Part shown: one piece after another, positions 2,947 to 15,132 of the stretch | Numbering within the stretch: position 1 is the first letter of the stretch | Layout: every line of letters begins with the position of its first letter | Virus genome (UHGV): UHGV-0391889 | Length of the DNA stretch: 39,374 nt | DNA from: a virus | Direction: 5' to 3' (one strand) | The notes under the pieces: generated by a model | Told to the model about the DNA's origin: nothing | The model's database searches: none | Seen by the model: the letters and a program-made list of their open reading frames with translations, nothing else | Made by a program: the position numbers and the translations under genes

Positions 2947-3756
2947 TTATTCTTCTGAATTATCGATTACACTGTATTCCCCGGTTAATACAGAGGAGTC
3001 TGCCGGATCGATTGTCAGTGGTTCCTTTTCATCCATTGATACTGCACGCTGGATTTCAATTGAGACAGGCAGGTATTTAAACAGGCGACGAATAGCCGTT
3101 TTTTTTGCCATTTCTTCCCAGTGAGTTACCCATGGCCCGTTATTACCAGCCTTACTCTGGCTGCGCACCAGTTCAATCTGTTTGCGCGTCATAACTTCAA
3201 ACTGAGTCCCTCCGTCTTTCAGTCTTGCGACAGCATAGACGTGGGTCACTGGTGCATCTTCGTTTTCTCCCGGGCGGTGTATTAACTTTTCATCAAGGCC
3301 AAATTCAAAACTAAACTCGTCACCTTCACGGACAACACGGGCTGACAGGCTGGCGATTTGACCAGAACGGCGAGCCAGATCAATCATGCCGCGATAACCA
3401 ATGATTAGCTGAACGTTCTTTTTACCGCTCTTTTCGTTTTTATTACCAAAAGGCAGTAAATATGCGTGGCCGAGGGCGCTACCTGGCTCAAGGCCGAGCT
3501 GTGAACACTGAACGATCGCACTGACAAAACTCATGGTGTCACAGTTTCCTAGCGCCGGAACCTTACGAATTTCTGTGGTGGCGATACGTATCATTCGTTC
3601 AGCCGTCATATGGCGTGGGAGAGCTGCTGCCAGTTGCTCTTTCATTGATGGCTGATTAATAAAGCTGATCACGTCGTTATTTTTTACTGCTGCTGGTGCA
3701 CGGTTTCCCTGGGTTTTTTGCAGATCGGCTTTTGCGATAGGTGGTTGCTTAGTCAT
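2947..3756 (-). CDS. recT: RecT single-strand annealing recombinase
   Basis: 269 aa from [16 protein letters not shown]..., matching recalled E. coli Rac RecT; AAGGAG RBS upstream; track ORF trimmed to this start. Confidence 0.95.
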
Positions 3757-13520: not shown

Positions 13521-13739
13521 ATGCCTACATTATTCAGAAAAGAATATCCGCGAAGAAGTCGAATAACAGAACTCCTGTTTCTCATTCTGTTTATCGTGTT
13601 GATGATACCGATATCCCCGCTAATTTTTGTCTGGGCAATCGGGAAAATAATTGAGCCAGTTATTGAATTGTATAACGACGTGGTATGGGCGTCGTTCAAC
13701 ACACTGCACAATAAAATTAATCCATATAAGGAAAACTGA
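13521..13739 (+). CDS. Hypothetical small membrane protein
   Basis: Start MPTLFRK with a GGAGAG RBS; one strongly hydrophobic segment (LLFLILFIVLMIPISPLIFVWAIG). Confidence 0.45.
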   Translation: MPTLFRKEYPRRSRITELLFLILFIVLMIPISPLIFVWAIGKIIEPVIELYNDVVWASFNTLHNKINPYKEN

Positions 13740-13740
13740 A

Positions 13741-14106
13741 ATGGCACTGACGAAAAAACAACGTGCAGAGCTGCGCATGAAGTTCGGCGGTCGCTGTGCT
13801 TATTGTGGCTGCGAACTTGGCGAAAAGTGGCATGTAGACCATGTAAAACCGGTCATTCGTTTTGCTGGAAATATGCTTCACCAGGAACGTGACGATATAT
13901 CCAACATGGTTCCGGCATGCCACCCATGCAATCTGCACAAGCATTGCAGCAGCCTGGAAGATTATCGGCGAATTATCAGTGATGGTCGTCGTGAATTCCT
14001 TGCGTCCGGGAAAGGCAAGGCGCTGGTTCGTATGGGATTGGTTGAAATGAAATCTGACCCGGTTGTGTTCTGGTTTGAAAAATATCAAGAAGGGGCTACA
14101 GCATGA
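13741..14106 (+). CDS. HNH endonuclease
   Basis: 121 aa from MALTKKQRAELR...; HNH signature CAYCGCEL...HVDHVKP...N...ACHPCNLHK. Confidence 0.8.
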   Translation: MALTKKQRAELRMKFGGRCAYCGCELGEKWHVDHVKPVIRFAGNMLHQERDDISNMVPACHPCNLHKHCSSLEDYRRIISDGRREFLASGKGKALVRMGLVEMKSDPVVFWFEKYQEGATA

Positions 14107-14597
14107 CCACTTTTACCGACAAAGAACTGATTAAAGAAATCAAAGAGCGCATCAGCAGCCTGGACGTGCGAGACAATATTGAGCGCCGGGCTTATGAGAT
14201 TGCACAGGCATCTCTGGTAGCAGAGCCAGTGGCATATCAGTATCGCCAGTGGGATGCAGAATATGATGAATGGGGAGAATGGGAAGATTGCGGGGAAAGT
14301 GCTTTCGAAAGATTTGTTGAGGAAGAGAAATGCCTGGGGGCAGGTGTTCAGACCCGTAAGCTTTACACCGCCCCTCCAGTGCATCAACCCGGTGGATTTA
14401 CAATTGAGGAAACACAAGAACTTTACGAAGACTTGGTTCGAAGCCACATAAGCCAAGCTTTAAGTGGCGAAAAGATGAAAAAGAAAGATCGCGATGCTGA
14501 TTTACGCTGGATTCATGGCGTTATAGTTCAGGCTGCGTGGTTTGTGAAAGCATCACTGGAAGCGTTGCCTGAACCACCGCAGGAGGTGAATCAATGA
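14103..14597 (+). CDS. Hypothetical protein
   Basis: 164 aa ORF, coupled to the HNH gene; acidic, Trp-rich central region. Confidence 0.55.
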   Translation: MTTFTDKELIKEIKERISSLDVRDNIERRAYEIAQASLVAEPVAYQYRQWDAEYDEWGEWEDCGESAFERFVEEEKCLGAGVQTRKLYTAPPVHQPGGFTIEETQELYEDLVRSHISQALSGEKMKKKDRDADLRWIHGVIVQAAWFVKASLEALPEPPQEVNQ

Positions 14598-14677
14598 CCT
14601 GGCCTGAAGCATTCACAACGGTAGGAATTGCGATGGCGGTGGCGCTGGTGGTGTATTCGATTTTCCGATGGGGATAA
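14594..14677 (+). CDS. Candidate 27-aa hydrophobic peptide
   Basis: MTWPEAFTTVGIAMAVALVVYSIFRWG; AGGAGGTGA RBS 5 nt upstream; ATG overlaps the upstream stop. Confidence 0.35.
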   Translation: MTWPEAFTTVGIAMAVALVVYSIFRWG

Positions 14678-14769
14678 AAACGGTTTGCGGGAAAAGGAGA
14701 GTTAAGTAGAATTGCTGCGGGTGCTTGAGGCTATCTGCCTCGGGCATGAACACCAACGGCAGATAGAGA

Positions 14770-14838
14770 AAAGCCCCAGTTAACATTACGCGTCCGGCAA
14801 GACGCTTAACATTAATCTGAGGCCATATCTATGCGACA
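14770..14838 (-). ncRNA. Candidate Sok-like antisense RNA
   Basis: Minus-strand promoter-like TTGACC (14868-14873) and TAATCT (14844-14849) with 18 nt spacing, facing into the hok leader; minus-strand hairpin then T-run near 14770. Positions approximate. Confidence 0.3.
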
Positions 14839-14890
14839 CATAGAGATTAGCCTCTTACGGACCGAAAGGTCAAGGAGAAGCAGGCTATGA
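14831..14890 (+). CDS. Mok-like leader ORF (19 aa)
   Basis: Short ORF whose stop overlaps the hok start (ATGA). Confidence 0.4.
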   Translation: MRHIEISLLRTERSRRSRL

Positions 14891-15042
14891 AGCAGCAAAA
14901 GGCGATGTTAATCGCCCTGATCGTCATCTGTTTAACCGTCATAGTGACGGCACTGGTAACGAGGAAAGACCTCTGCGAGGTACGAATCCGAACCGGCCAG
15001 ACGGAGGTCGCTGTCTTCACAGCTTACGAACCTGAGGAGTAA
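14887..15042 (+). CDS. hok: Hok/Gef family type I toxin (HokD/RelF-like)
   Basis: 51 aa MKQQKAMLIALIVICLTVIVTALVTRKDLCEVRIRTGQTEVAVFTAYEPEE: N-terminal TM helix and conserved Cys, as recalled for E. coli HokD. Confidence 0.85.
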   Translation: MKQQKAMLIALIVICLTVIVTALVTRKDLCEVRIRTGQTEVAVFTAYEPEE

Positions 15043-15111
15043 GAGACCAGGCGAGGGAGAAATCCCTCGCCACCTCTGATGTGTCAGGCATCCTCAACGC
15101 ACCCGCACTTA

Positions 15112-15132
15112 ACCCGCTTCGGCGGGTTTTTT
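15112..15132 (+). terminator. Rho-independent terminator after hok
   Basis: CCCGC-ttcg-GCGGG followed by TTTTTT; a second hairpin (GGCGAGGGA/TCCCTCGCC, 15046-15070) lies directly after the stop. Confidence 0.6.

What the first reader, a model, noticed from the sequence alone, without database searches (positions are those of the whole stretch)
14594..14677. Unannotated 27-codon hydrophobic peptide with a strong RBS
MTWPEAFTTVGIAMAVALVVYSIFRWG has a near-consensus AGGAGGTGA RBS, overlaps the upstream stop codon, and is essentially a single transmembrane helix. That is the signature of small membrane-active toxins or regulatory peptides. It lies just upstream of the hok locus.
Basis: seen in the sequence. 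Interest (0 to 1): 0.45.

Follow-up and report, generated by a model that had tools for sequence, protein, structure and literature searches.

The report
Unannotated 27-residue phage membrane protein gene
The 27-codon reading frame is a real, conserved but almost never annotated phage gene for a tiny single-helix membrane protein; it is found in about a third of complete E. coli genomes, and its position next to the hok toxin locus here looks like one of many placements rather than a functional link.

Summary
ORF 14594-14677 (+) encodes MTWPEAFTTVGIAMAVALVVYSIFRWG. AGGAGGTGA lies at 14581-14589, and the ATG overlaps the TGA stop of the upstream 164-aa gene (ATGA).

It is a real gene. I recovered 296 copies from Stx/lambdoid, P1-like and rV5-like phages and prophages; 278 are exactly 27 codons, in 40 protein variants. 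Changes fall mainly on third codon positions (41:35:119). pN/pS is 0.21 in this frame and above 1.5 in the two shifted frames.

The ORF moves as its own unit. It has several unrelated upstream gene tails and many different downstream sequences. All 137 unique contexts keep the ATGA overlap, and 132 keep a Shine-Dalgarno.

Only 34% of contexts have hok downstream. The Rfam hok/sok element starts at 14719, 42 nt past the stop.

Homologous DNA is in 1739 of 5426 complete E. coli genomes. It was not annotated in any record inspected, and only 3 clusters exist among 5.8 billion proteins.

It matches no toxin or small-protein family and shows no type I toxin regulatory architecture.

Most likely it is an N-out/C-in inner-membrane peptide, translationally coupled to Ea22/DUF551-type genes, that packs against a partner through a conserved G11-A15-L18-S22 face. 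Its function is inferred, not shown.

The parts
14581..14589 (+). Shine-Dalgarno AGGAGGTGA of the small ORF. It is encoded inside the last codons (..P-Q-E-V-N-Q*) of the upstream gene.
   Evidence: Read directly. An SD-like 4-mer sits at -16..-4 in 132 of 137 unique contexts. In other contexts the SD is supplied by different upstream tails, for example GTGGAGGAT in '...GLISVEDILR*'.
14594..14677 (+). 27-codon gene for MTWPEAFTTVGIAMAVALVVYSIFRWG, including the TAA stop.
   Evidence: 296 homologous copies, of which 278 are 27 codons, in 40 protein variants. pN/pS is 0.21, against 1.58 and 1.63 in the +1 and +2 frames. Parsimony changes by codon position are 41:35:119, p=2e-15.
14594..14597 (+). 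ATGA start/stop overlap with the upstream gene, the proposed site of translational coupling.
   Evidence: ATGA is present in 137 of 137 unique contexts. Residue 2 varies (Thr, Ser as AGC, Asn, Ile) but its codon always starts with A, which preserves the upstream TGA. In an earlier set of 139 unique contexts, 121 had an upstream ORF of at least 50 aa ending in that TGA.
14609..14665 (+). Predicted transmembrane segment, residues 6-24 (AFTTVGIAMAVALVVYSIF). W3/P4 lie at one interface and Y21, R25 and W26 at the other.
   Evidence: Hessa-scale sum is about 0.0 kcal/mol for residues 6-24. Conserved residues P4, F7, G11, A15, L18, S22, R25 and W26 fall at helical-wheel angles of 200-340 degrees. 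Variable residues fall at 0-180 degrees.
14103..14597 (+). Upstream 164-aa gene, the coupling partner. It is a mosaic Ea22-like protein with a DUF551-type tail (...LPEPPQEVNQ*).
   Evidence: PHROG 5117, 60 and 660 hits with no Pfam hit. RefSeq homologs are named DUF551 or, probably spuriously, 'dTDP-6-deoxy-L-hexose 3-O-methyltransferase'. Upstream genes in other contexts are mosaic relatives with different C-terminal modules.
14719..15042 (+). Neighbouring but independent hok/sok locus: the hok mRNA leader and sok region (14719-14889), a mok-like 19-codon ORF (14831-14890) and the hok CDS (14887-15042).
   Evidence: Rfam RF01794, 101 bits, E 1e-23. Pfam HOK_GEF. The mok-like ORF ends in a TGA that overlaps the hok ATG. 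A terminator-like hairpin is at 15111-15128.

Best explanation
The ORF is a genuine, conserved phage gene that annotation pipelines miss.

Shown:
- It encodes a 27-residue peptide that is essentially one hydrophobic helix.
- Its start codon overlaps the stop codon of the preceding Ea22/DUF551-type gene (ATGA), and it has a strong Shine-Dalgarno 7 nt upstream.
- The ORF, its SD and the ATGA junction behave as one transferable cassette. The cassette recurs after different upstream genes and before many different downstream sequences.
- Its position next to hok/sok in this window is one of many placements.

Inferred:
- It is made whenever the surrounding early operon is translated. Here that is the P-to-Q 'nin-like' region; in 933W and BP-4795 it is the region next to ea22 and xis-int.
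- Initiation is SD-driven and coupled to termination of the upstream gene.
- The peptide inserts in the inner membrane N-out/C-in. The only positive charge (R25) is C-terminal, E5 is N-terminal, and aromatic residues sit at both interfaces.
- It acts by packing its conserved small-residue face (G11-xxx-A15-xx-L18-xxx-S22) against another transmembrane helix. The partner is most likely a host or phage inner-membrane protein, in the manner of other bacterial small membrane proteins, rather than the peptide killing the cell.

My probabilities: real protein-coding gene about 0.93; membrane-inserted helix about 0.85; functionally independent of hok about 0.8; partner-binding modulator about 0.35.
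For: - Sequence features.
- Conservation as a protein: 296 copies, 278 of 27 codons, 40 variants and up to 38% nucleotide divergence. Third-position bias is 41:35:119. pN/pS is 0.21, against more than 1.5 in the shifted frames.
- Independent contexts: BP-4795 (DUF551 gene, ORF, DUF4222 gene, xis-int). The Vequintavirinae phage TH18. The P1-like phages SJ46 and 813R1. ArgO145, where the ORF lies before a convergent toxin-antitoxin pair. 933W, where it lies after L0139 and before hokW. There are about 28 different downstream sequences and 3-4 classes of upstream tail.
- Coupling: 137 of 137 contexts keep ATGA and 132 of 137 keep an SD.
- Unbiased sample anchored on the hok leader: of about 31 homologous copies, 28 are intact and 3 are disrupted.
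- Prevalence: 1739 of 5426 complete E. coli genomes, up to 8 copies per genome.
- Outside hok/sok: RF01794 starts at 14719.
- Operon context: DnaC-like, DUF1627, DUF977 and HNH genes upstream; DUF1367, YbcO and a Q-type antiterminator downstream.
- Hydrophobicity and one-sided conservation.
Against: - There is no direct evidence of translation or of membrane insertion. The one O157 Sakai Ribo-seq small-gene study I checked considered only ORFs of at least 30 aa.
- The antisense frame that shares third positions gives an equally low pN/pS (0.20). I favour the + strand because it has a conserved ATG, SD and stop at fixed length in all contexts.
- Most loci were found by peptide-pattern searches, which favours intact copies.
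- About 10% of copies in the unbiased sample are broken, and 9 copies lose W26-G27, so the gene is dispensable in prophages.
- The transmembrane score is borderline (about 0 kcal/mol).
- Y21 and S22 are not strictly invariant.
- The partner-binding mechanism rests only on the conservation pattern and on analogy.
Confidence: 0.75

Rival explanations
1. It is a membrane-damaging peptide (toxin-, holin- or viroporin-like). It would oligomerise in the inner membrane and depolarise or permeabilise the cell once the early operon is expressed.
For: It has the size and hydrophobicity of pore-forming type I toxins. A conserved small-residue face could equally drive self-association. It is often found next to toxin-antitoxin cassettes: hok in 34% of contexts and a convergent toxin-antitoxin pair in ArgO145.
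Against: It matches no toxin family in Pfam, NCBIfam, PHROGs or PADLOC. It lacks the regulatory apparatus that toxins of this size usually need. There is no own promoter and no structured leader hiding the SD (z +1.1). No flanks are conserved that could encode an antisense RNA. A strong, exposed SD with coupling inside an early operon fits poorly with a potent toxin. It has a single charged residue at each end and no polar or charged residues within the helix.
Confidence: 0.13
2. It works together with hok/sok. For example, it could modulate Hok insertion or toxicity, or its translation could influence read-through transcription into the hok promoter and leader.
For: hok is the most common single downstream neighbour (46 of 137 unique contexts), always at the same junction, TAA followed by AAACGGTTTGCGGG. 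In hok loci that lack this ORF, 38 of 119 carry a different, unrelated small hydrophobic ORF just upstream. So 57% of these hok loci are preceded by some small transmembrane ORF.
Against: 66% of ORF contexts have no hok, including BP-4795, TH18, the P1-like phages and ArgO145. 44% of the hok loci have neither small ORF. The ORF ends 42 nt before the Rfam hok/sok element and upstream of the presumed hok promoter. Synonymous sites in the ORF vary freely while the hok leader is nearly invariant.
Confidence: 0.06
3. The peptide itself has no function. The ORF would persist because translating this short stretch is useful (for example to prevent Rho-dependent polarity), or because the DNA serves as a recombination linker between modules.
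For: The junction CAGGAGGTGAATCAATGA recurs at other gene boundaries, for example before the L0139-like gene in L022, as expected of a module-exchange linker. The gene is lost or broken in some prophages.
Against: Selection acts on the amino-acid sequence, not on the DNA. Synonymous sites vary freely (pS 0.27) while pN is 0.056. The third-position excess is highly significant (p=2e-15). Length is fixed at 27 codons. W3, P4, A6, G11, R25 and W26 are nearly invariant across 40 variants.
Confidence: 0.04
4. It is not a separate protein. Instead it would be a C-terminal membrane anchor joined to the upstream Ea22/DUF551-type protein by a frameshift.
For: One locus (L014) has the ORF fused in frame to the upstream gene, giving a 237-aa product that ends in the peptide. 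An SD-like sequence just upstream of a stop codon is reminiscent of recoding sites (my own knowledge of prfB).
Against: The fusion is 1 case among about 139 contexts and is explained by one extra G. The ORF is in the -1 frame relative to the upstream gene, and the site (G AAU CAA UGA) is not a slippery heptamer. The ATG and SD at optimal spacing are conserved in all contexts, including after unrelated upstream tails.
Confidence: 0.02

Closest known systems
Bacterial small single-pass inner-membrane proteins that bind larger membrane proteins (KdpF, AcrZ, MgtS, CydX, as I recall them)
   Same: It has fewer than 50 residues and is essentially one transmembrane helix with aromatic or charged residues at the interfaces. 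Conservation is on one helix face. Such genes were long missed by annotation. Like kdpF and cydX, this one is encoded inside an operon rather than as a stand-alone regulated unit.
   Different: There is no sequence membership: the best NCBIfam hit is KdpF TIGR02115 at 15.2 bits over 12 residues, against a cut-off of 26.85. It is phage-borne and mobile as a cassette, whereas those are chromosomal core genes. No partner is encoded consistently next to it. The upstream Ea22/DUF551-type proteins show no membrane-protein family match and carry mosaic C-terminal modules.
Type I toxin peptides (Hok/Gef next door; TisB, DinQ, ShoB, Ibs, Ldr)
   Same: It is a short hydrophobic peptide predicted to sit in the inner membrane, of similar length to TisB, DinQ and ShoB. 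It is found in mobile elements and often beside toxin-antitoxin cassettes.
   Different: It matches no toxin HMM. It shows no antisense RNA locus, no own promoter and no folded leader. Its strong SD is translationally coupled to an upstream gene. Toxicity has not been tested.
Small early genes of the lambdoid exo-xis / ea region (orf60a, orf61, orf63, orf73, ea8.5, ea22)
   Same: It has the same genomic neighbourhood in 933W and BP-4795 (after ea22-like and DUF551 genes, near xis-int) and the same kind of mosaic, accessory early genes. The literature describes the region as poorly characterised (PMC7093339, PMC10789677).
   Different: The papers I checked on that region do not mention this ORF. 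As I recall, the described exo-xis products are soluble, whereas this one is a membrane helix. It also occurs in the nin-like region (this window) and in P1-like and rV5-like phages.
PHROG 4612 (unknown function, 57-position profile)
   Same: The whole 27-aa peptide aligns to profile positions 33-57 (E 0.012). This would fit a family built from over-extended calls of this same ORF, such as the 45-aa database entry P0004.
   Different: The score is weak, and the 933W variant does not hit at all. I could not inspect the PHROG members.

Membership tests
Genuine protein-coding gene (general criteria) | Start codon with a Shine-Dalgarno at functional spacing, conserved across homologs | tested here: met
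   AGGAGGTGA lies 4 nt before the ATG and the GGAGG core 7 nt before it. An SD-like 4-mer is present in 132 of 137 contexts. The start is ATG in all but one GTG case.
Genuine protein-coding gene (general criteria) | Reading frame and length kept across diverged homologs and across different genomic contexts | tested here: met
   278 of 296 copies are exactly 27 codons, at up to 38% nucleotide divergence. In the sample anchored on hok rather than on the ORF, 28 of about 31 copies are intact.
Genuine protein-coding gene (general criteria) | Purifying selection on the encoded amino acids in this frame | tested here: met
   pN/pS is 0.21, against 1.58 and 1.63 in the +1 and +2 frames. Parsimony changes are 41:35:119 by codon position. 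Caveat: the antisense frame that shares third positions scores 0.20.
Genuine protein-coding gene (general criteria) | Direct evidence of translation (ribosome profiling, tagging, mass spectrometry) | not testable with these tools
   The Sakai Ribo-seq small-gene study excluded ORFs under 30 aa. The peptide sequence was not found in the paper library or in two supplements.
Type I toxin-antitoxin toxin (Hok/Gef, TisB, DinQ, ShoB, Ibs, Ldr) | Small hydrophobic membrane peptide | tested here: met
   GRAVY is 1.10, with one 19-residue hydrophobic segment.
Type I toxin-antitoxin toxin (Hok/Gef, TisB, DinQ, ShoB, Ibs, Ldr) | Sequence match to a described toxin family | tested here: not met
   Pfam, NCBIfam, PHROGs and PADLOC give no toxin family, even at E up to 10 for the first three and up to 1 for PADLOC.
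Type I toxin-antitoxin toxin (Hok/Gef, TisB, DinQ, ShoB, Ibs, Ldr) | Own promoter, structured leader that limits translation, and an antisense RNA antitoxin that travels with the toxin | tested here: not met
   No promoter-like site lies upstream. The fold is no better than shuffles (z +1.1). Flanks on both sides differ between contexts, so no linked RNA gene is conserved. The SD is coupled to an upstream gene in 137 of 137 contexts. The nearby sok belongs to hok.
Type I toxin-antitoxin toxin (Hok/Gef, TisB, DinQ, ShoB, Ibs, Ldr) | Growth arrest or membrane depolarisation when expressed | not testable with these tools
   Needs an expression experiment.
hok/sok locus (as a component of it) | Lies within the hok mRNA / sok RNA unit | tested here: not met
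   RF01794 covers 14719-14889, while the ORF ends at 14677. The presumed hok -35/-10 elements (TTGCGG...TAGAAT, about 14684-14712) lie after the ORF stop. That reading is mine from the sequence; the consensus scan did not score it.
hok/sok locus (as a component of it) | Obligate co-occurrence with hok | tested here: not met
   46 of 137 ORF contexts have hok downstream. About 30 of 119 hok loci have the ORF upstream.
Small inner-membrane accessory or regulatory proteins (KdpF/AcrZ/MgtS kind) | Fewer than 50 aa with a single transmembrane helix | tested here: met
   27 aa, with residues 6-24 hydrophobic. This rests on hydrophobicity scales only, not on a dedicated topology predictor.
Small inner-membrane accessory or regulatory proteins (KdpF/AcrZ/MgtS kind) | Homology to a named family (for example KdpF, TIGR02115) | tested here: not met
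   15.2 bits against a cut-off of 26.85, over 12 residues only.
Small inner-membrane accessory or regulatory proteins (KdpF/AcrZ/MgtS kind) | Conserved helix face suited to packing against a partner helix | tested here: met
   P4, F7, G11, A15 (A or S), L18 (L or F), S22, R25 and W26 lie at 240-340 degrees on a helical wheel. Variable positions 2, 9, 10, 12, 16 and 19 lie at 0-180 degrees. This is suggestive, not proof.
Small inner-membrane accessory or regulatory proteins (KdpF/AcrZ/MgtS kind) | Physical binding to, and effect on, a larger membrane protein | not testable with these tools
   Needs co-purification or two-hybrid assays and phenotypes.
PHROG 4612 | Significant profile match | tested here: inconclusive
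   E 0.012, 16.9 bits, for the window peptide. The 933W variant gives no hit.

The most novel reading that the evidence does not exclude
hok/sok cassettes in enterobacterial prophages may be preferentially partnered with a small single-helix membrane peptide encoded just upstream. The partner would be this 27-aa family or the unrelated 'MDRL-type' 34-aa family. Such a peptide could tune Hok action or membrane insertion, or give phage-specific protection from it. More generally, the 27-aa peptide could be a new phage-encoded modulator of a host inner-membrane machine, for example one used for DNA entry (superinfection exclusion), shared by temperate lambdoid, P1-like and virulent rV5-like phages.
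Probability: 0.1. Interest if true: 0.7.

Novelty: new member of a known kind. Interest (0 to 1): 0.42.

Why it matters
Stx-converting and other E. coli phages are among the most studied and most often sequenced mobile elements. Even so, this gene is absent from every phage and RefSeq record I inspected and from essentially all of a 5.8-billion-protein database. The probable reason, from my own knowledge of gene callers, is that its 84 nt fall under their usual minimum length (90 nt in Prodigal).

It is present in about a third of complete E. coli genomes, often in several copies. It is under purifying selection and travels as a minimal cassette of SD, ATGA junction and 27 codons.

This makes it a clean, testable small-membrane-protein candidate in the poorly understood ea / exo-xis / nin accessory regions, which influence lysis-lysogeny decisions and Shiga-toxin phage induction.

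It also corrects a tempting mis-reading, namely that a hydrophobic mini-ORF beside hok must belong to the toxin system.

Tried and rejected
I used peptide alignments instead and the 45-aa over-extended database entry P0004.
- An exact-sequence look-up found only 4 database members, all for the BP-4795 variant.
- A literature search for the peptide strings gave 0 papers. The supplements of Hücker 2017 and of 'The Cryptic Bacterial Microproteome' gave no hit. Hücker 2017 used a 30-aa minimum, so it cannot speak to this ORF. The exo-xis literature does not mention it.
- The PADLOC scan of the peptide and its neighbours gave nothing relevant; only generic HNH hits appeared for ORF 13651-14106.
- RNA folding of 14555-14700 showed no structure beyond shuffles, so I dropped the idea of a structured RNA element or a sequestered SD.
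- I rejected the antisense 57-aa ORF (14613-14786, minus strand). It spans the hok promoter and leader, which is absent from most contexts, whereas the + strand ORF keeps its start, SD and stop everywhere.
- I considered programmed frameshifting onto the upstream protein and rejected it. The site is not slippery, and the single fused case, L014, is explained by one extra G.
- I did not run structure prediction. A 27-residue helix would add nothing decisive, and the peptide is below the tool's 30-aa minimum.
- I did not check whether E. coli K-12 carries a copy, which would have allowed use of the published K-12 initiation profiling. The tools offered no way to filter BLAST hits by strain.

Full report
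**1. The observation.** The window holds an ORF from ATG 14594 to TAA 14675-14677 that encodes MTWPEAFTTVGIAMAVALVVYSIFRWG. AGGAGGTGA lies at 14581-14589, so the GGAGG core ends 7 nt before the ATG. The ATG overlaps the TGA stop of the 164-aa ORF 14103-14597 (ATGA). The peptide has a GRAVY of +1.10, and residues 6-24 form a 19-residue hydrophobic segment that sums to about 0 kcal/mol on the Hessa scale. hok follows at 14887-15042 (Pfam HOK_GEF, E 1e-23). A 27-codon ORF alone means little, because 78 ORFs of at least 20 aa overlap the surrounding 4.5 kb. The case therefore rests on comparative evidence.

**2. Conservation.** The first comparisons showed that the homology shared with 933W-type Stx phages begins about 15 nt before the ATG and runs through hok. 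933W encodes MTWPEAFANVGTVMAVVLVVYSICRWR in the unannotated gap between L0139 and sokW/hokW. A tblastn search of the phage collection found the peptide in 93 records.

I then ran peptide-pattern scans of IMG/VR and of one genome per species. Together with a scan anchored on the hok leader, these yielded 296 copies. Of these, 278 are exactly 27 codons, 9 stop at W26, and 8 are a 24-residue form in P1-like phages. The 27-residue copies fall into 40 protein variants.

- Among 64 distinct 84-nt sequences, which differ by up to 38%, parsimony changes by codon position are 41:35:119 (chi-square p=2e-15).
- Pairwise pN/pS is 0.21 in the ORF frame, against 1.58 and 1.63 in the +1 and +2 frames.
- The antisense frame that shares third positions scores 0.20, as expected geometrically. 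Only the + strand has a conserved ATG, SD and stop at fixed length in all contexts.
- These searches favour intact copies, so I also looked upstream of 119 hok loci found by an exact match to the hok leader. About 31 of them carry homologous DNA. Of these, 28 are intact, including one GTG start and W3R, P4S and P4T variants. Three are broken: two by stops at codon 3 and one by a 1-nt deletion.

**3. The ORF is its own module.** It sits in unrelated places:

- After a DUF551 gene and before a DUF4222 gene, xis and int in BP-4795.
- Within a run of unannotated early genes in the virulent Vequintavirinae phage TH18.
- In P1-like phages.
- Before a convergent toxin-antitoxin pair in ArgO145.
- Before terminator-like hairpins in many IMG/VR contigs.
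- Before hok in this window, 933W and others.

There are about 28 different downstream sequences and several upstream tail classes...LPEPPQEVNQ*...GLISVEDILR* and ...LKNIEQEVNR*. The upstream genes are mosaic Ea22-like proteins with interchangeable C-terminal modules.

All 137 unique contexts begin with ATGA, and 132 have an SD-like 4-mer. Residue 2 varies (Thr, Ser, Asn, Ile), but its codon always starts with A. Ser is encoded as AGC. This keeps the upstream TGA and points to conserved translational coupling. The junction CAGGAGGTGAATCAATGA also recurs at other gene boundaries, as expected of a module-exchange linker.

**4. Relation to hok.** Rfam places the hok/sok leader (RF01794, 101 bits) at 14719-14889, which is 42 nt past the ORF stop. 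The hok promoter I read from the sequence (TTGCGG, 17 nt, TAGAAT, about 14684-14712) also lies after the stop.

Only 46 of 137 unique ORF contexts have hok downstream, and only about a quarter of hok loci of this leader type have the ORF upstream. Within the ORF, synonymous sites vary freely, whereas the hok leader is almost invariant. I conclude that the adjacency is one placement among many.

One oddity remains. 38 of the 119 hok loci carry a different small hydrophobic ORF just upstream, such as MSDDISLAMEGALAVVAVVGVYCLVVFLMDRLGN. It matches no family. This keeps a small probability alive for some hok-related role of upstream membrane peptides.

**5. Context in this window.** The ORF lies in the rightward early operon. 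Upstream are DnaC-like, DUF1627, DUF977 and HNH genes and the 164-aa Ea22/DUF551-tail gene. Downstream are hok, DUF1367, YbcO and a DUF1133/Q-type antiterminator. No promoter-like site precedes the ORF, and the RNA around it folds no better than shuffles (z +1.1). I infer that it is expressed with the early operon after infection or induction.

**6. Why it is unannotated.**

- No record I inspected annotates it.
- An exact look-up found 4 entries, for one variant only.
- A homology search with a 45-aa over-extended entry found 3 clusters among 5.8 billion proteins.
- From my own knowledge, 84 nt is under the 90-nt minimum of Prodigal.
- Homologous DNA is in 1739 of 5426 complete E. coli genomes, with up to 8 places per genome and 164 places on plasmids.
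- In the one-genome-per-species collection, only Escherichia and Shigella gave long-contig hits. The other hits were contigs of 369-1780 nt assigned to unrelated genera, which probably reflect contamination. Salmonella appears through SJ46 and a short contig.

**7. What it is and how it probably works.** It belongs to no described family. Pfam, NCBIfam, PHROGs and PADLOC give only sub-threshold hits: KdpF at 15.2 bits against a cut-off of 26.85, and PHROG 4612 at E 0.012.

The conserved positions are W3, P4, A6, F7, G11, A15, L18, Y21, S22, R25 and W26. All except A6 cluster on one side of a helical wheel (200-340 degrees), whereas most of the variable positions lie on the other side. The single positive charge is C-terminal and the single negative charge is N-terminal. 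Aromatic residues flank the hydrophobic core.

From this I infer an N-out/C-in inner-membrane helix that packs through a G11xxxA15..L18..S22 face. The partner is most likely another membrane protein, as for known small membrane proteins (probability about 0.35). Self-association into a damaging pore is less likely (about 0.13). The ORF lacks the type I toxin architecture and instead has an exposed, coupled, strong SD in an early operon.

**8. Verdict.** It is a new family of a known kind. Interest is moderate. The gene is widespread, overlooked and easy to test, but unannotated small genes are by now an expected finding.

Noticed in passing
L175, L187, L177, L190 and about 34 other hok-anchored IMG/VR loci; not in the window: A second, unrelated family of small hydrophobic ORFs ends 35-69 nt upstream of the same hok leader in 38 of 119 loci. 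Examples are MSDDISLAMEGALAVVAVVGVYCLVVFLMDRLGN and MWEVIVLVLKCALAIAAVMAIYCLVIVLMNHLSD. They have no Pfam or NCBIfam match. Together with the 27-aa ORF, 57% of these hok loci are preceded by a small transmembrane ORF.
   Followed up: partly
window 14831-14890 (+), compared with L001 1753-1965: The mok-like ORF of this hok locus is only 19 codons (MRHIEISLLRTERSRRSRL). It ends in a TGA that overlaps the hok ATG, giving ATGA again. In 933W the annotated mokW is in frame with hok as an N-terminal extension. Small indels in the leader switch between the two arrangements.
   Followed up: partly
window 14598-14602 (CCTGG in codons 2-3); L188, L293 (phage POCJ13), L216: Codon 3 (TGG) lies in a Dcm site (CCWGG). 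Two independent pseudogenised copies carry CCTAG (TGG to TAG), the change expected from 5-methylcytosine deamination on the bottom strand. A third has TGA. The synonymous ACC-to-ACT change, the matching top-strand event, is also seen.
   Followed up: partly
L014 2371-3084: One IMG/VR contig has the 27-aa ORF fused in frame to the upstream '...KAMDYLKRNG' gene through one extra G. The predicted product is a 237-aa protein with a C-terminal transmembrane helix. This could be a sequencing error, a mutation or a natural fusion.
   Followed up: no
window 14580-14597; L022 about 2950-3000: The junction CAGGAGGTGAATCAATGA (the tail of a DUF551-type gene, an SD and the ATGA) recurs in front of other genes, such as the 933W L0139-like gene. 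It looks like a short linker at which lambdoid modules are exchanged.
   Followed up: no
window 15051-15132 (+): The hok 3' end and terminator region gives a sub-threshold Rfam match to the Salmonella prophage sRNA IsrK (31 bits against a gathering score of 50, E 1e-4).
   Followed up: no
L294 1501-1575 (phage SJ46) and L298-L304: P1-like phages carry a shorter 24-residue form, MSWPEAFAIVGVAMAIAAIFIFWG. It lacks the Y-S-I-C-R motif and follows an unrelated upstream gene, with a TAATG overlap instead of ATGA.
   Followed up: partly
window 14103-14597 and RefSeq homologs (L002 2168-2698): PGAP names close homologs of the upstream Ea22/DUF551-tail protein 'dTDP-6-deoxy-L-hexose 3-O-methyltransferase'. 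The window protein has no Pfam or NCBIfam hit and only unknown-function PHROG hits, so the name looks like annotation error propagation.
   Followed up: no
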